A DNA stretch of 64,000 nucleotides, from positions 8,450 through 72,449 of IMG/VR virus record IMGVR_UViG_3300031746_002125; one strand, given 5' to 3'. The translations under genes and the position numbers were made by a program. Source of the DNA: a virus. The notes below the pieces were generated by a model, which saw only the letters and a program-made list of their open reading frames with translations, ran no database searches and was not told the DNA's origin. Shown one piece after another: positions 38,197-42,911 of the stretch (positions are counted from its first letter, which is position 1; every line of letters starts with the position of its first letter).

Positions 38197-38447
38197 TTTT
38201 CGGACCATAGGCTTCGAATTATCGGACGGCATATAACTACCACACCCTTATCGGACCTAATTGGCCAGACGCCAATTATAGGACCGCCCATTATCGGACG
38301 AGCATATAGAGAAGGTTATCGGGCTTATACTTATAGGACGTGGACGCGGGGAGGGAAAAAGATTATGGGAGCACGGGATATAGGACTATACATTATGGGA
38401 CGATGTGCCGCTCGTGCCGATGCCAAAAACATGCTCGGTTATCGGAC
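38197..38447 (+). repeat. Iteron-like cluster of 11 copies of TTATNGGAC
   Basis: Copies start at 38197, 38219, 38248, 38276, 38291, 38316, 38331, 38363, 38378, 38393 and 38439; 15-bp spacing recurs four times. Confidence 0.85.
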
Positions 38448-38469
38448 GATAAAAATTTTTTATTTTCGT

Positions 38470-38497
38470 TTGCTTACCTGCGATTCTATTCTACAAT
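38470..38497 (+). promoter_or_regulatory. Sigma70-type early promoter
   Basis: TTGCTT-N16-TACAAT preceded by an AT tract. Confidence 0.6.
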
Positions 38498-38530
38498 TAG
38501 GTTGGCAATAGGGCCGACAAGGAGAAGAAA

Positions 38531-38677
38531 ATGGTACTAGGAATAACAATCGGAACGGGCGCGGTGGTGATGATGGTGATTATGATGATTAAGACCAGCT
38601 TAGAAAATGCTGGCAACACCTACGGGCGGCGGAGCGTTTGCGGACGTTCGGCTCGGTGGAACAGGAGGGTGCGATAA
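38531..38677 (+). CDS. Small early membrane peptide (48 aa)
   Basis: GGAG RBS; MVLGITIGTGAVVMMVIMM; stop overlaps the next ATG. Confidence 0.55.
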   Translation: MVLGITIGTGAVVMMVIMMIKTSLENAGNTYGRRSVCGRSARWNRRVR

Positions 38678-38754
38678 TGTTTACAATGATCGGACTAGGA
38701 TTTCTCATGGTGGTTATCGGAGCGGTGAAGGTGTGGTGGGAATTATCGGAATAA
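38677..38754 (+). CDS. Small early membrane peptide (25 aa)
   Basis: AGGAGG RBS; MFTMIGLGFLMVVIGAVKVWWELSE. Confidence 0.55.
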   Translation: MFTMIGLGFLMVVIGAVKVWWELSE

Positions 38755-38765
38755 AGGAGAGCTTT

Positions 38766-38921
38766 ATGTGGACGCTAGTTATCTGGACATCGCCGAACGA
38801 CAGCGCATCCTACGATTATCGGACGAGAATGGAAGCGTTGGCTATCGGACGTAATTGCATCGACGCCTATGCAGTTGAATTATACGGACCTGACGGCGAG
38901 TATGAAGGATTTTCGGACTAG
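38766..38921 (+). CDS. Small early protein (51 aa)
   Basis: AAGGAG RBS; MWTLVIWTSPND... Confidence 0.6.
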   Translation: MWTLVIWTSPNDSASYDYRTRMEALAIGRNCIDAYAVELYGPDGEYEGFSD

Positions 38922-38929
38922 GAGGTGCT

Positions 38930-39172
38930 GTGATGATGAAAGCAACACTTGAAGTTTTCTGGCCAAGCGACCCAACATTTTCGGACGCTGACAAGGTTTC
39001 GCGGTACGATAATCTTTGGGACGATTGTGTGATGATAGACGCGAGAATAGCAGCCCTTTGTGGTGGACACGCCATCGCGACACTATCGGACGGCTACCGG
39101 GTCGAATACATCTCGGACGATTGCGAGCCGACTGGTTATCGGACTAAAGGCGTACCATGTGAAACGGTCTGA
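38930..39172 (+). CDS. Small early protein
   Basis: AGGAGG RBS; followed by a terminator. Confidence 0.6.
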   Translation: MMMKATLEVFWPSDPTFSDADKVSRYDNLWDDCVMIDARIAALCGGHAIATLSDGYRVEYISDDCEPTGYRTKGVPCETV

Positions 39173-39189
39173 TTATCGGACGAAGGACC

Positions 39190-39214
39190 GGGCCGAATTA
39201 TCGGCCCTTCTTTT
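39190..39214 (+). terminator. Rho-independent terminator
   Basis: GGGCCGA-ATTA-TCGGCCC-TTCTTTT. Confidence 0.75.
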
Positions 39215-39228
39215 GCGCTGATCGGTTT

Positions 39229-39395
39229 GGTCCTATAAAAATCACTGCTTGTAAAATCGTAACTTAACTGCGAATTATGGGACCAGGCATATATTACTTC
39301 GTTTATGTGCGTTTCCTGCGGGATGTTATCGAATCATGCAAATAATATCGAAGAATTCCTATAATAATTGAGACATTATCATTAAAAATCAACAT
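39229..39395 (+). repeat. Intergenic degenerate repeat R1
   Basis: Blocks GGTCCTATAA, AAATCGTAA, AACTGC, TTATRGGAC, ATATATTACTTCG, AATAATA, CCTATAATAA shared with R2 and R3. Confidence 0.8.
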
Positions 39396-39424
39396 TTTAT
39401 TGGCCTATCCTCGTATAATATATT

Positions 39425-39940
39425 ATGGGAACTATCCGGGAAATAAAGGTTACAGGACGTAATTATGAATTATCGGTCCTTGTCGATGAAGAAGATTATC
39501 AGACGTTAAGGTTATGGGAATATGGTTTGTCCAGAATTATAGGACTTGATACAACCTACATACAGACTTATAAAAAGGGCAAAAGGGGTTATCTCCATCG
39601 TCTTATTATGGGGGTTTCGGACGCGACAACGTCCATTTTCGTAGATCATATTGACCATAATGGGCTTAATAATTCTAGGACCAACCTACGTATTACCAAT
39701 AATAAGGGTAATCAGCGCAATTCGCGCAAACGATTATCGACAAAACGAACAAGCTCCTATAAAGGAGTTTATTTTTCTCACAATAATAAGATGAACCCCT
39801 GGTTAGCATCCATTCATCTATCGGACAGTAGAACACATCTGGGATATTATAGGACCGAAATAGAAGCGGCTCACGCCTATAATAAGGCCGCTATCGAGCA
39901 TTTCGGCGACATGGCCAACCCGAACATTCTCGGACCATAA
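39425..39940 (+). CDS. HNH-AP2 endonuclease (leaderless, motif-overprinted)
   Basis: YLHRLIM..VDHIDHNGLNNSRTNLR; AP2 YKGV..HLGYY..EAAHAYNKAA. Confidence 0.88.
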   Translation: MGTIREIKVTGRNYELSVLVDEEDYQTLRLWEYGLSRIIGLDTTYIQTYKKGKRGYLHRLIMGVSDATTSIFVDHIDHNGLNNSRTNLRITNNKGNQRNSRKRLSTKRTSSYKGVYFSHNNKMNPWLASIHLSDSRTHLGYYRTEIEAAHAYNKAAIEHFGDMANPNILGP

Positions 39941-39968
39941 AATTTTTCAGATTTTTATTATTTGGACC

Positions 39969-40820: not shown

Positions 40821-40851
40821 ATCAGACTAAAAGATTTTCTTGTCGGGCGAC

Positions 40852-40880
40852 TTGACTTCGGCGGTCGGCTTGCATATAAT
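40852..40880 (+). promoter_or_regulatory. Sigma70 promoter
   Basis: TTGACT-N17-TATAAT. Confidence 0.85.
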
Positions 40881-40953
40881 TCAATATGACCGAACGCGAT
40901 AGCCTATAGTGTTATGGGCGAGCGTAAAGTCGATCCATTATAGGAGCTCCAAT

Positions 40954-41286
40954 ATGTCGGCAACCGCAGTAGTTTCAAGCCCAGTAACCACCAGCAAAGT
41001 TCACGAAAAGGAATTTTTGACGACCGCGCAGGACTACGCGCGTGACCGCAAGGGCATAGATTGGCTATCGTCCCAACCCAACCCAGACGAGGCTATCGAC
41101 CGCGTTATGAAGGTTATTGGCCGCCTTCAGAATATGGTTGCCAACGGTTCGGACTATACTCCAGCCGCGCAGCTCGGCTTCGGGTCCGCTAACGCCTCAA
41201 CCATCGCGTCCGGTATTCTCGGCGCAGGCTTGACGGGTTCGCAGATTCGCAAGCTGTTCGCAACCGTAGGCAAGCCGAAGGCATAA
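40954..41286 (+). CDS. Monocistronic early protein (110 aa) with GC-rich codon usage
   Basis: TAGGAG RBS before MSATAVVSS; own promoter and terminator. Confidence 0.7.
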   Translation: MSATAVVSSPVTTSKVHEKEFLTTAQDYARDRKGIDWLSSQPNPDEAIDRVMKVIGRLQNMVANGSDYTPAAQLGFGSANASTIASGILGAGLTGSQIRKLFATVGKPKA

Positions 41287-41320
41287 TTTTCGGACCTCGA
41301 CGACTTATCGAGGAACGAAT

Positions 41321-41359
41321 TATCGGACGGGAGACGCGGGTTTCTCGTCCGATATTTTT
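41321..41359 (+). terminator. Rho-independent terminator
   Basis: TATCGGACGGGAGAC..GTTTCTCGTCCGATA-TTTTT. Confidence 0.8.
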
Positions 41360-41373
41360 GCGCGGATTTATAT

Positions 41374-41547
41374 GGTCCTATAATTTTCACTGCATGGTAA
41401 ATCGTAAAATAACTGCAATTATAGGACGTGGATTATATTAACTTCGTTTGTGCAAGATTTTCTAAGACATTCTCGGATAATACCAATAATATCAACTATG
41501 CCTATAATAAAGAGAACATATCGATTGAATAAATAGATATTATAGGA
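41374..41547 (+). repeat. Intergenic degenerate repeat R3
   Basis: Same conserved blocks as R1 and R2. Confidence 0.8.
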
Positions 41548-41559
41548 ATCCCATAATTT

Positions 41560-41680
41560 TTATTGGGTTCGGACGTATAATTATAGGACCGAAGAAGAAG
41601 CGGCAACAGCCTATAATAAAGCAGCTATCGAATTATTCGGACCTATTGCCTTCCTCAATATATTACCGGACCAAAAATAA
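41560..41680 (+). pseudogene. Internally deleted HNH-AP2 remnant
   Basis: ATTGG-N9-TATAAT joined directly to YRTEEEAATAYNKAAIELFG..., homologous to the C-terminus of 39425..39940. Confidence 0.75.
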
Positions 41681-41706
41681 TTTTTTTGATTTCTGGTTAT
41701 AAGACC

Positions 41707-41735
41707 TTGACATTTCGGTTCTGCAAGCATATAAT
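41707..41735 (+). promoter_or_regulatory. Sigma70 promoter (perfect consensus)
   Basis: TTGACA-N17-TATAAT. Confidence 0.88.
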
Positions 41736-41942
41736 ATAATAGTATTTTCGGACAAAAGAAGGTTGATCTGGACGAGTTTTCGGACGACGGGAAGATGGGC
41801 GATATGCGCACTTTTTCTTCTTATAGGACTAATTATTAGGACTACGATTTTATCGGAGGTTCCATATAATTTCTGTCTTGGCATCGTATTATTCAAAGAC
41901 TTATCGGGTGGTGCCAATAATCATTTTATTTTACCCAAAGGC

Positions 41943-41971
41943 TTGACTATCGTTGACTACGAGCATATAAT
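41943..41971 (+). promoter_or_regulatory. Sigma70 promoter driving the ncRNA candidate
   Basis: TTGACT-N17-TATAAT; predicted TSS near 41978. Confidence 0.85.
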
Positions 41972-41977
41972 TAGATA

Positions 41978-42655
41978 GCCGAATGCGCAGCGACCCGATA
42001 ACTTCGGGAACGGTCGATAATTCGACCCGATATAGGCTTATTATATGCCATAAGCCCGCACGGTTCGGTTAGTCTGATAAGGGCGAGTAGCGCAAGGTAA
42101 AGTAGTTCTTTACTTGAAGCGCCAGCGAAGGGTTTTGTTATCGGCCCTGACTTCGGGCAATGCCCGATAAAAGGTTCTCATTCGGACGGGAGCGTCCGAT
42201 AAGGACGGAAGCCCGATAATAAGTCCGCGCTATCTAGGGCGCACTCCCTAGTGAGAGTCCGATAAGTTGTTCGGACAAGGGCGCAAGTCCCCTAGTCAGT
42301 CCCATAATCAATTCATGGAAGTCTCCCGACAAGAGCAGAATTAAAGTGGGGTCTCAACTGGTTATCGGCGGCGCGTCTGTCAACCCGAATAACTTGGGCG
42401 ATAACTAAGTTCTTATCGGTCCAACGGATTCTCGAAGTATTATTGAAGCGATACTCCTTCCATTGAAGCTATGGTCAAGTCTTGTGCAACGATTCGCTCG
42501 CGTAATTATCGGGTCTTGTAAGCAAGTCAAAGCTTACTTCGGTCTATTGTCGAGCGATAGTGTGAGACTTCAATCGCTGGTGGATGCCGCTTTCGGCTAA
42601 GGTCGATTGTTCGGGTTCGATAACTGGTCAATAATACTCAAACCAACTTTCAATT
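41978..42655 (+). ncRNA. Large structured ncRNA candidate (~680 nt)
   Basis: No ORF of 60 aa or more; GC-rich; many hairpins (GTCGA-TAAT-TCGAC, GGCTTAT..ATAAGCC, CTAGGG..CCCTAG, GTCCGA..TCGGAC) with TTCG/GCAA loops; 5' TAGCCGAA complementary to TTCGGCTA at 42592. Confidence 0.7.
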
Positions 42656-42911
42656 CAAAGGGCATGATTATCGGATGAAGTTTTGGTCCGAAAAGATTCT
42701 GCCCTTCTCGTCCAATAACTCTCCAGTCCAAAAGCTACGACCCATAAATAAGGGCAAAAACACGGGAAAAGGTCAAAGTCCAAATAAAGAAAAACTGCCT
42801 GCAATTTTTTCGCAGAGTCAGAATCTTTTTTGGATCAATGAGATTTCCGGGGTCCGGCTCTTTTTAGAGCTCCTTGGGTTTGCGCCAGGATTCGCGGTAT
42901 TATTGGATGTT

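What the first reader, a model, noticed from the sequence alone, without database searches (positions are those of the whole stretch)
38197..42790. A 4.6 kb island saturated with an oriented TTATNGGAC motif that overprints genes and reverses polarity
Seen: where minus-strand genes give way to plus-strand genes, GC rises and WTWTNGGAC (TTATCGGAC, TTATAGGAC, TTTTCGGAC, TTATGGGAC) recurs every few tens of bp. A hand count gives about 60 GGAC vs 13 GTCC in 38.2-41.9 kb, in all reading frames, inside and between genes and upstream of the first promoter. After about 41.95 kb the reverse form (CCGATAA, GTCCGAAAA, GTCCAATAA) dominates. It is much rarer elsewhere in the window. Inference: a DNA-level polar signal for a protein that coats or translocates this region. 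Candidates are the first-injected end, a pac/origin site, Chi/KOPS-like polarity or a parS-like loading zone. I know no described phage system with this motif.
Basis: partly seen in the sequence, partly recalled or inferred. Interest (0 to 1): 0.9.

Follow-up and report, generated by a model that had tools for sequence, protein, structure and literature searches.

The report
Oriented motif field over phage early genes
A 3.7 kb early-gene region of an uncultured large phage is packed with one-way copies of the 9-letter word TTATCGGAC, written over genes and promoters alike and kept unchanged in distant relatives, most likely as landing sites for a protein that switches the early genes.

Summary
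Window 38100-41960 holds 64 GGAC against 13 GTCC. Nearly every GGAC follows TTWT[C/A]. WTWTNGGAC occurs 33 times against 0.7 expected.

The motif also exceeds synonymous-codon shuffles inside genes. The exact 9-mer occurs nowhere else on that strand of the 72 kb record.

The same island sits at the same place in eight further distinct relatives, with one invariant motif (320 forward, 33 reverse over nine islands). These are large uncultured sediment phages; complete relatives are 168-181 kb.

The island is the early module:
- strong sigma-70-type promoters and terminators;
- small membrane proteins;
- a usually very basic ~120-aa protein;
- a conserved ~110-aa protein.

Downstream lies a structured non-coding stretch, a ~900-nt conserved RNA in five relatives. 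It holds the reverse copies, largely as hairpin halves.

My best reading (about 0.45) is an oriented field of double-stranded DNA binding sites that silences or insulates the early module. It would work like mycobacteriophage stoperators without belonging to that family.

The reader protein, the DNA-versus-RNA level and any link to genome ends are unproven. Helical phasing was tested and not supported.

The parts
38197..41847 (+). Motif island: 64 GGAC against 13 GTCC, counted over 38100-41960. 38 copies of TWTNGGAC and 10 exact TTATCGGAC, all on the + strand. Consensus R-TTAT-C/a-GGAC-B.
38197..38447 (+). Left-boundary array. Nine copies lie in the non-coding spacer between the last minus-strand gene (HNH, 37540-38073) and the first early promoter.
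   Evidence: Positions, sequence. The homologous array in six relatives keeps the motif copies while the spacers diverge.
38470..38497 (+). First early promoter P1 (TTGCTT, 16 nt, TACAAT), preceded by an A/T-rich tract. Its role as a promoter is inferred.
   Evidence: Read. The same -35 TTGCT / -10 TAtAcT element stands at the same place in six relatives. It lies below the threshold of the scan.
39969..39997 (+). Sigma-70-type promoter (TTGACT, 17 nt, TATACT). A one-mismatch motif copy sits one base upstream of the -35 hexamer.
40852..40880 (+). Sigma-70-type promoter (TTGACT, 17 nt, TATAAT) ahead of the conserved 110-aa gene.
41707..41735 (+). Sigma-70-type promoter (TTGACA, 17 nt, TATAAT; 12 of 12). 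A one-mismatch motif copy abuts the -35 hexamer.
41943..41971 (+). Sigma-70-type promoter (TTGACT, 17 nt, TATAAT) at the point where the polarity changes. It would drive the non-coding stretch that follows.
39190..39215 (+). Terminator-like hairpin plus T run, at the start of repeat unit 1.
41321..41364 (+). Terminator-like hairpin (15 pairs). A forward motif copy pairs with its reverse complement (TATCGGAC...GTCCGATA), followed by a T run.
39211..39420 (+). Repeat unit 1 of three ~230-nt intergenic units. The others are at about 40626-40860 and 41356-41570. Each carries a reverse copy (GGTCCTATAA), about 40 nt, then a forward copy followed by TATATT.
   Evidence: 75% mean column identity over three copies.
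39425..39940 (+). HNH-AP2 homing-endonuclease gene inside the island, overprinted by 4 motif copies (7 GGAC in all three frames). Paralogues just outside the island carry 0 and 1.
40053..40358 (+). Window member of the island protein family found in 9 of 9 islands. In the family, 115 of 120 listed members have pI above 9. The window copy is diverged and acidic (pI 4.4).
40954..41286 (+). Conserved ~110-aa early protein that marks the distal end of the island in all relatives. It has no forward motif copy. The fold is all-helical with no known match.
41580..41661 (+). Remnant of the 3' end of an HNH-AP2 gene (73% identical to 39846-39927).
41978..42830 (+). Non-coding, strongly structured stretch that holds the reverse copies, many of them as halves of hairpin stems. 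It stands where five relatives carry a conserved ~900-nt structured RNA. Homology of the window stretch to that RNA is not shown.
   Evidence: z -4.6 for + and -4.4 for -. for the relatives. No Rfam match.
42911..42986 (+). tRNA-Met, the first of a tRNA and HNH region downstream.

Best explanation
The island is the early, host-takeover-type transcription module of a large uncultured phage. The motif (R-TTAT-C-GGAC-B) is an asymmetric binding site on double-stranded DNA for a sequence-specific protein. About 20-65 copies per genome point the same way as early transcription. They lie upstream of the first promoter, next to the -35 elements of several early promoters, in leaders, and written over the early genes themselves.

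Once the protein is present it would occupy the whole 2-4.7 kb module at roughly one protomer per 25 bp where sites are packed. It would shut the module off or insulate it, blocking initiation at promoter-proximal sites and elongation at internal ones. This is the logic of mycobacteriophage stoperators, compressed into one region.

The likeliest reader is phage-encoded. My candidate is the small, usually very basic early protein encoded inside every island.

Shown: the motif, its orientation, its density, its spacing rule, its conservation, and the anatomy of the module.
For: - Excess over composition and over codon-preserving shuffles.
- The in-island HNH gene has motif-creating substitutions that its paralogues outside lack.
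- One island per genome in 10 related records examined.
- All 7 loci found through the conserved 110-aa protein carry the island directly upstream. One of the 7 duplicates another.
- Over nine distinct islands there are 320 forward and 33 reverse copies, and the motif does not change. Core proteins differ by up to about half: capsid 67-75% identical, terminase 55-65%.
- Left-boundary array: the copies are conserved while the spacers diverge, and they lie upstream of the conserved first promoter. The upstream conserved element does not look like a sigma-70 promoter: its spacer is 19 nt and a -10-like hexamer is present in 3 of 7.
- In 7 of 22 promoter-like sites, a copy or a one-mismatch copy lies at or within one base of the -35 hexamer. 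Full copies start 67-77 nt upstream of +1 in 5 of the 22. No copy starts between -43 and +4.
- Adjacent copies avoid each other below 22 bp (19 observed, 69 expected). They pile up at 22-27 bp (58 against 16.7; maximum 30 in 2000 simulations) and at 33-36 bp (27 against 9.9).
- A candidate reader exists. The protein family is in 9 of 9 islands, has 238 database relatives, and 115 of the 120 listed have pI above 9.
- Predicted RNA accessibility of the motif is not raised: 0.037 against 0.052 background.
- Precedent: the L5 repressor is predicted to bind as a monomer to more than 20 asymmetric 13-mers at promoters and in intergenic spaces. Their orientation follows transcription, and reversing a site abolishes repression (PMC9283540, passages read).
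Against: - No binding protein is identified. The candidate family matches no Pfam, PHROG or PDB sequence family, and the window's own copy is acidic (pI 4.4).
- Helical phasing, which would have pointed to double-stranded DNA, is not supported. Once the 22-27 bp peak is left out, the 10.5-bp period has p=0.23.
- All conserved island genes lie on the motif-sense strand. Orientation therefore cannot be separated from the sense of the RNA.
- The nine islands are homologous, so co-orientation with transcription is in effect one observation.
- The promoters with a copy next to the -35 may be copies of one cassette.
- The array upstream of P1 could still be transcribed from an unrecognised promoter, or in antisense by the leftward operon.
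- The density (one copy per 68-136 bp) far exceeds what a roadblock or an operator needs.
- Reverse copies in the downstream stretch point against the presumed direction of its transcription.
Confidence: 0.45

Rival explanations
1. The motif acts in RNA. UUAUCGGAC is read in the early transcripts by an RNA-binding protein, for example the basic island protein, or by a nuclease. It would then time the decay, translation or antitermination of early messages.
For: About 90% of copies are in the sense of early transcription, and all conserved island genes share that strand. Forward copies pair with reverse copies in terminator hairpins. The adjacent non-coding RNA region is built from motif and anti-motif hairpins. 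The motif is independent of reading frame and its codons are fixed: TTA TCG GAC for Leu-Ser-Asp in 6 of 9 homologues. A small basic early protein would suit RNA binding as well.
Against: Nine conserved copies lie upstream of the first recognisable promoter. Copies next to -35 elements and 67-77 nt upstream of +1 suggest a DNA-level role. The predicted unpaired probability of the motif is slightly below background (0.037 against 0.052, p=0.011). One or two sites per message would be enough for known RNA regulators.
Confidence: 0.2
2. The motif is a polar signal for a machine that moves along DNA. It could be a Chi-like attenuator of the host RecBCD/AddAB nuclease, a KOPS-like loading signal, or a signal for terminase or genome entry. 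The island would then be the protected or first-entering end, comparable to the repeat-rich injection-stop region of T5.
For: The orientation is strict, with opposed copies at the distal boundary: window 5 reverse against 0 forward in 41961-42800, and 9 reverse against 3 forward within about 1.1 kb downstream of the conserved gene in six distinct relatives. The island lies at a switch of gene strand and at the window's cumulative GC-skew minimum. Three long relatives break at or near the island: 160,023, 160,681 and 108,402 bp. An invariant motif across diverged phages would fit a conserved host machine. T5-like phages keep 8 DnaA boxes in an untranslated region of the terminal repeat (10.1101/866236, abstract and section 3.3.3 read).
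Against: A minimum spacing of 22 bp and a peak at 22-27 bp are not expected for Chi or KOPS. Fixed places beside promoter elements are not expected either. Assemblies run through both borders of the island in G000, G002, G003, G005, G006 and G007. The two complete genomes close as circles with a k-mer-sized overlap, so they show no end. GC skew tracks gene strand. The host is unknown, so enrichment of the motif in the host chromosome cannot be checked. Contig breaks may simply reflect the repeats.
Confidence: 0.13
3. The island is a decoy or sponge on DNA for a host protein, such as a regulator, a nucleoid protein or a defence sensor. The phage would titrate or recruit that protein as soon as the early region enters the cell.
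For: The copy number and packing are far above regulatory need. The motif is invariant among phages whose own proteins are only 30-60% identical. The first five positions, TTWTN, have the same form as the DnaA-box consensus TT(A/T)TNCACA quoted in 10.1101/866236.
Against: The last four positions (GGAC) do not fit a DnaA box. Bacterial genomes showed no comparable islands: of 120 stretches returned, only short and heterogeneous arrays were seen, and the 10 flanking ORFs scanned from six of them showed no common gene context. Genome G+C of the phages ranges from 0.34 to 0.48, which suggests different hosts. Simple titration does not need one orientation.
Confidence: 0.1

Closest known systems
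Stoperators and operators of Cluster A mycobacteriophages (L5 gp71-type repressor)
   Same: Both use an asymmetric site present in tens of copies, found at promoters and inside transcription units, with an orientation that follows the direction of transcription. In L5, reversing a site abolishes repression, and the repressor acts on both initiation and elongation (PMC9283540, abstract and introduction and model passages read).
   Different: The L5 sites are 13-mers in short intergenic spaces spread over a ~50 kb temperate genome. Here a 9-10-mer saturates one 2-4.7 kb region of a roughly 170 kb phage at one copy per 68-136 bp, written over coding sequence. No integrase or lysogeny module was looked for.
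Injection-stop (iss) repeat region of T5-like phages
   Same: Both are a conserved set of oriented 9-mer boxes plus inverted repeats and palindromes, close to the pre-early genes (10.1101/866236, abstract and section 3.3.3 read). The first five motif positions, TTWTN, agree with the DnaA-box consensus quoted there.
   Different: T5 has 8 boxes in pairs, in an untranslated part of the terminal repeat, and they fit the host DnaA box (…CACA). Here there are 20-65 copies ending in GGAC, mostly in one orientation and overprinting genes. A terminal position is unproven.
SPO1 host-takeover module with TF1 binding
   Same: Both are a compact cluster of strong host-type early promoters, terminators and small early genes. 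In SPO1 a phage DNA-binding protein acts on the early promoters.
   Different: As I recall it, TF1 is an HU homologue that recognises hydroxymethyluracil DNA rather than a short motif. No HU-family protein was found in 0 of 5 records.
phi29 protein p6 nucleoprotein complex
   Same: Both involve a protein array with a period of about 24 bp over a defined genome segment, controlling early promoters.
   Different: As I recall it, p6 reads bendability rather than a conserved word, and it acts at the genome ends.

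Membership tests
Stoperator/operator system (Cluster A mycobacteriophages) | Asymmetric site in tens of copies, with orientation correlated with the direction of transcription | tested here: met
   320 forward and 33 reverse copies in nine islands. All conserved island genes and the mapped promoters are on the same strand. 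The nine islands are homologous, so this is one lineage.
Stoperator/operator system (Cluster A mycobacteriophages) | Sites both at promoters and within transcription units | tested here: met
   Copies or one-mismatch copies lie at or within one base of the -35 hexamer in 7 of 22 promoter-like sites. The others lie in leaders and ORFs.
Stoperator/operator system (Cluster A mycobacteriophages) | Sites confined to short intergenic spaces and spread over the whole genome | tested here: not met
   There is one island per genome and almost no copies elsewhere, and the copies overprint genes.
Stoperator/operator system (Cluster A mycobacteriophages) | gp71-type repressor (HTH plus stoperator domain) that binds as a monomer | tested here: inconclusive
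   The profile of the basic island protein found no PDB chain at E up to 10 apart from two chance-level rows. Other proteins of the phage were not compared. Binding is not testable with these tools.
DnaA-box array (T5 iss, oriC, datA) | Boxes fit TT(A/T)TNCACA | tested here: not met
   Positions 6-9 were fixed as GGAC by the search pattern, so they are not a finding. The fit test is that all 10 exact 9-mers in the island end in GGAC rather than CACA, and that 64 GGAC sit in the TTWTN context. Only TTWTN agrees.
DnaA-box array (T5 iss, oriC, datA) | A DnaA-type domain IV reader | tested here: not met
   Bac_DnaA_C was over its cut-off in 0 of 5 phage records. One weak match (E 0.013) fell in a 222-aa open frame on the minus strand of G000 that I did not characterise further. 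The host is unknown.
ParB/parS partition or loading zone | A ParB N-terminal domain protein encoded by the element | tested here: not met
   ParB_N was found in 0 of 5 records, two of them complete genomes.
Chi / KOPS-type polar chromosome signals | Skewed over-representation along the whole replicon and in the host chromosome | tested here: not met
   In the phages the motif is confined to one 2-4.7 kb island. The host chromosome is not testable because the host is unknown.
pac site / terminal repeat / first-injected end | Physical DNA ends or doubled coverage at the site | not testable with these tools
   Only Logan contigs were available. The complete relatives close with a 127-bp overlap.
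Iteron-type replication origin | Tandem 17-22 bp repeats about two helical turns apart, beside a Rep gene and an A/T-rich unwinding region (features as recalled) | tested here: inconclusive
   The site is 9-10 bp, and the modal spacing is 22-27 bp without significant helical periodicity. Arrays run over 2-4.7 kb. Rep families were not searched.
Known RNA families (Rfam 15) for the reverse-motif stretch | Match to a curated covariance model | tested here: not met
   Only tRNAs were found in the window and in five loci of relatives.

The most novel reading that the evidence does not exclude
The island is a new kind of cis-acting identity tag for the host-takeover segment of a large phage. An invariant, one-way 9-mer is written at near-maximal packing over promoters, leaders and genes. 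A dedicated factor, or a moving machine such as the entry apparatus, a nuclease or RNA polymerase, would then treat this segment differently from the rest of the genome. The reverse copies in the adjacent large structured RNA gene would act as its boundary or counter-element.
Probability: 0.15. Interest if true: 0.9.

Novelty: new variant of a known kind. Interest (0 to 1): 0.72.

Why it matters
If the reading is right, a whole early gene module is controlled by tens of packed, oriented sites imposed on coding sequence down to codon choice. Known phage switches use a few operators. This would be an extreme case of dual coding.

It would also be a compact, portable silencing or insulating element: one short word plus one small protein.

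The finding gives handles on three uncharacterised, lineage-wide parts of an uncultured group of large sediment phages (complete relatives 168-181 kb):
- a very basic ~120-aa protein family (238 relatives);
- a ~110-aa protein with a confident helical model and no known structural match;
- a ~900-nt structured RNA absent from Rfam.

The hypothesis is directly testable in vitro with synthetic DNA and two small proteins, without culturing the phage.

Tried and rejected
**Helical phasing.** The Rayleigh power peaked at 10.5-11 bp. The peak vanished when the 22-27 bp class was left out (p=0.23 at 10.5 bp). I make no claim of phasing.

**Physical ends.** No RNA holder was listed. All 13 runs are sediment metagenomes kept as contigs. 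The contigs laid show no ends; one bridges 36500-39916. The "direct terminal repeats" of the two complete relatives are exactly 127 bp, an assembly overlap. GC skew follows gene strand.

**Cultured relatives.**
- DNA search of the phage collection found no match.
- The terminase finds only about 25% identical Bacillus and Clostridioides phages.

**Literature on the motif.** The search returned 326 papers. The 20 listed were unrelated by title and abstract.

**Bacterial genomes.** They show only short TTATCGGAC(A) arrays. The 10 flanking ORFs scanned from six of them gave unrelated neighbours: aminotransferase, ABC transporter, ATP-grasp, sigma-54 activator and others. I dropped this as heterogeneous.

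**The conserved 110-aa protein as reader.** I consider it unlikely.
- The family's median pI is 6.6, and 36 of 62 members are below 7.
- There is no Pfam, PDB-sequence, Foldseek or Atlas match.
The second reached 90.9.
- Its GSDN motif overlaps a reverse copy in G003, but the codons vary among phages, so the conservation is at the protein level.

**Antisense pairing of the downstream RNA with early messages.** I consider it weak. The reverse copies are largely inside stems and are not strictly conserved.

**Phage sigma or promoter reading of the motif.** No conserved element lies downstream of the motif.

**Other domain searches.** HU, ParB and DnaA domains are absent.

**Homology of the window's non-coding stretch.** The RNA model of the relatives did not hit the window, G002 or L268. 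G001 gave only E=0.33. Homology of window 41978-42830 to that RNA is therefore not shown.

Supplementary files were not consulted.

Full report
**1. The observation**

The window is 64 kb of a 72,449-bp virus record. CheckV rates the record 43% complete.

GGAC/GTCC per kilobase are 19/1, 16/4, 15/4 and 14/5 between 38 and 42 kb. They are 3/11 in 42-43 kb and mostly 0-4 each elsewhere. GC rises from 0.30 to 0.46 at 38 kb.

In 38100-41960 there are 64 GGAC and 13 GTCC. The 64 GGAC are preceded by T (48), T (48), A/T (34/22), T (49) and C/A (34/17).

Against 1000 dinucleotide-preserving shuffles:
- WTWTNGGAC occurs 33 times against 0.71 expected (maximum 4).
- TTATCGGAC occurs 10 times against 0.05.

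The exact 9-mer occurs nowhere else on the + strand of the record. It occurs twice on the other strand, both in 41961-42800.

Synonymous-codon shuffles that keep protein and codon usage give 0.5-0.8 copies where 3-4 are seen in three ORFs (P 0.002-0.0055). The result is borderline in a fourth (P 0.049). GGAC falls in all three frames.

A natural control agrees. The HNH-AP2 gene inside the island carries 4 copies, made by substitutions at variable positions. Its two paralogues just outside carry 0 and 1.

The reversal after 41.95 kb is real for the GGAC end (GTCC 10, GGAC 3; five reverse WTWTNGGAC against none forward). It is not real for the TTATCGG core (5 and 5).

**2. What the region is**

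Minus-strand ORFs end at 38073-38291 and plus-strand ORFs follow.

The island holds:
- four consensus-like sigma-70-type promoters (39969, 40852, 41707, 41943);
- two good terminator-like hairpins, one built from a forward copy and its complement;
- three copies of a ~230-nt intergenic unit;
- an HNH-AP2 homing-endonuclease gene and a remnant of another;
- small ORFs;
- a ~110-aa gene without forward copies.

Nine copies lie at 38197-38447, between the last leftward gene and a first promoter (TTGCTT, 16 nt, TACAAT at 38470-38497). That promoter's counterpart is conserved in relatives.

After the last promoter comes about 850 nt without credible ORFs, followed by tRNA-Met. This stretch folds far better than shuffles on either strand (z -4.6 and -4.4). 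Many of its reverse copies read as one half of a hairpin stem. No Rfam family matches.

**3. Relatives**

By my own rough estimate, single matches are at chance level. A handful of loci carry dense one-way arrays.

Whole-record counts show one island per record in ten related records. Exact TTATMGGAC copies on the main strand against the other strand are 21/4, 31/4, 44/6, 15/3, 12/4, 12/2, 16/4, 20/2, 6/2 and 10/3. These ratios range from 3:1 to 10:1. Almost all main-strand copies lie inside 2-4.7 kb.

The six records compared in full are one lineage:
- Capsid protein is 67-75% identical and terminase 55-65%, with shared synteny to the left of the island.
- Two complete relatives are 168,090 and 181,360 bp. 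The window's record is therefore a fragment.

Searching with the ~110-aa protein found 7 loci. Six are distinct and three are new. All have the island directly upstream of that gene.

Over nine distinct islands there are 320 forward and 33 reverse copies of TWTNGGAC, one per 68-136 bp. The consensus is R-TTAT-C/a-GGAC-B, with no second half-site within 45 nt.

The left-boundary array aligns among six relatives. The motif copies are conserved and the spacers are not. A conserved palindrome, one more copy and the first promoter follow.

All conserved ORFs in the islands are on the motif-sense strand. They include small membrane-like proteins and one family present in 9 of 9 islands. That family has 238 database relatives. 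Of the 120 listed, 115 have pI above 9 (median 9.6). It has no Pfam, PHROG or PDB-sequence match. The window's member is diverged and acidic (pI 4.4).

In this gene the motif sits at conserved codon positions. For example, Leu-Ser-Asp is written TTA TCG GAC in 6 of 9 homologues. Reverse cores sit at other conserved positions.

**4. The downstream RNA**

In G003, G004 and G005, the 830-880 nt right after the ~110-aa gene are 69-77% identical in DNA. That is more than the surrounding genes would lead one to expect. No long ORF is shared.

A covariance model of the first 212 nt finds the element at the same place in two further relatives (E 4e-56 and 8e-29). It does not find it in the window, G002 or L268. 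G001 gives only E 0.33.

Rfam has no match.

One to three reverse motif copies lie in the 5' part of this element, partly inside a modelled stem. Within about 1.1 kb downstream of the gene, six distinct relatives show 9 reverse and 3 forward copies.

The "polarity reversal" is therefore a conserved trait. It lies inside a structured RNA gene, or in the window a structured stretch of unproven homology.

**5. Mechanism**

Points for recognition as double-stranded DNA by a protein:
- The conserved array lies upstream of the first promoter. The conserved element before it has a 19-nt spacer and a -10-like hexamer in only 3 of 7 phages.
- A copy or one-mismatch copy lies at or within one base of the -35 hexamer in 7 of 22 promoter-like sites. 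Full copies start 67-77 nt upstream of +1 in 5 of the 22. None starts between -43 and +4.
- The spacing rule suggests packing. Fewer than 22 bp: 19 observed against 69 expected. 22-27 bp: 58 against 16.7. 33-36 bp: 27 against 9.9.
- Predicted RNA accessibility of the motif is not raised (0.037 against 0.052).

The logic has a precedent in the Cluster A mycobacteriophages:
- The repressor is predicted to bind as a monomer.
- It has more than twenty asymmetric 13-mer sites, at promoters and in intergenic spaces.
- The sites are oriented with transcription.
- They lose their effect when reversed (PMC9283540, passages read).

I therefore read the island as a stoperator-like field compressed onto the early module. 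Its probable task is early shut-off or insulation. The basic island protein is the candidate reader. These last steps are inference.

Points against, or left open:
- Helical phasing failed its control.
- Orientation cannot be separated from RNA sense.
- The islands are homologous, so orientation counts as one observation.
- The density exceeds regulatory need.

Rivals are an RNA-level signal (0.2), a polar signal for a moving machine or a genome end (0.13), and a decoy for a host protein (0.1).

**6. Comparison and novelty**

The island works most like stoperators, but it fails that family's distribution criterion (intergenic, genome-wide). No homologous repressor was found.

It resembles the T5 injection-stop region in being a conserved box array beside pre-early genes (10.1101/866236, abstract and section 3.3.3 read). 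Its boxes are not DnaA boxes, however, and a terminal position is unproven.

ParB, HU and DnaA-type domains are absent from five records.

A full-text search for the motif returned 326 papers. The 20 listed were unrelated by title and abstract.

I rate it a new variant of a known kind, with a 0.15 chance that it is a new kind of cis-signal.

Noticed in passing
L250:365-1364 (-), L260:18479-19478, L262:15880-16879; also L271:6356-6566 and L272:6392-6620: A conserved structured non-coding element of about 900 nt lies directly downstream of the ~110-aa gene in five relatives. It is 69-77% identical in DNA, shows visible compensatory changes, and ends before tRNA genes. Rfam 15 has no match, so it is a candidate new large phage RNA.
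   Followed up: partly
window 40954-41286 and 69 representative clusters: A lineage-wide ~110-aa early protein has a confident all-helical model (pLDDT 90.9). It has no Foldseek match in PDB or BFVD, and no Pfam, PHROG or Atlas match.
   Followed up: yes
window 118-64000, for example 14522-15547, 18961-19503, 23219-24175, 26375-27037, 37540-38073, 43902-44465, 55759-56430, 62741-63400: The window holds many paralogous HNH and HNH-AP2 homing-endonuclease genes. By my reading of the paralogue rows in the ORF comparison there are more than a dozen. A co-occurring strain in one run skips 37494-38103, that is, it lacks the HNH gene next to the island.
   Followed up: partly
window 39408-39427: The in-island HNH-AP2 gene starts 5 nt after a TATAAT hexamer and has no Shine-Dalgarno sequence. 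It may be a leaderless message.
   Followed up: no
window 19496-20038 (-) and 20667-21431 (+): A protein resembling sigma-70 region 2 (E 5e-4, below the cut-off) and an N6/N4 DNA methylase (PF01555, E 1e-36) are conserved in all five compared relatives. ClpP-like, ERCC4-like and MazG-like proteins are also conserved, the first two in all five. The methylase target is unknown.
   Followed up: no
window 4973-6751 (-): A 592-aa protein combines D5-like/HTH, HNH and Mom-like DNA-modification matches. G002 has a 44% identical homologue.
   Followed up: no
window 48579-48675 and 53005-53066: Rfam tRNA matches that ARAGORN did not list. The first is 97 nt long. ARAGORN lists tRNA-Met, Glu, Ile (tat) and Cys (aca).
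   Followed up: no
L187, L163, L149, L125, L122, L212, L197, L162 and others (bacterial genome contigs): Short direct arrays of TTATCGGACA (3-5 copies, 9-37 bp apart) occur in intergenic DNA of unrelated bacteria. The 10 flanking ORFs scanned from six of the loci gave no common neighbouring genes. In L133 the word is half of a TGT-N10-ACA palindrome beside a sigma-54 activator gene.
   Followed up: partly
P0078 (identical to the G004 island protein): One public source names this phage protein as belonging to a Chloroflexi MAG, on a 160-kb contig. The phage contig was probably binned with a bacterial genome. This is at most a weak hint of the host.
   Followed up: no
L065/L273, L262, L272, L271, L268, L269: about 60 nt upstream of the left array; window ~38150-38195: A conserved element TTGTAGG-(~19 nt)-gagccTAsTATG-cctaa-CCCCC lies just before the first motif copy in seven relatives, and weakly in the window. 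Its function is unknown, and it does not fit a sigma-70 promoter.
   Followed up: partly
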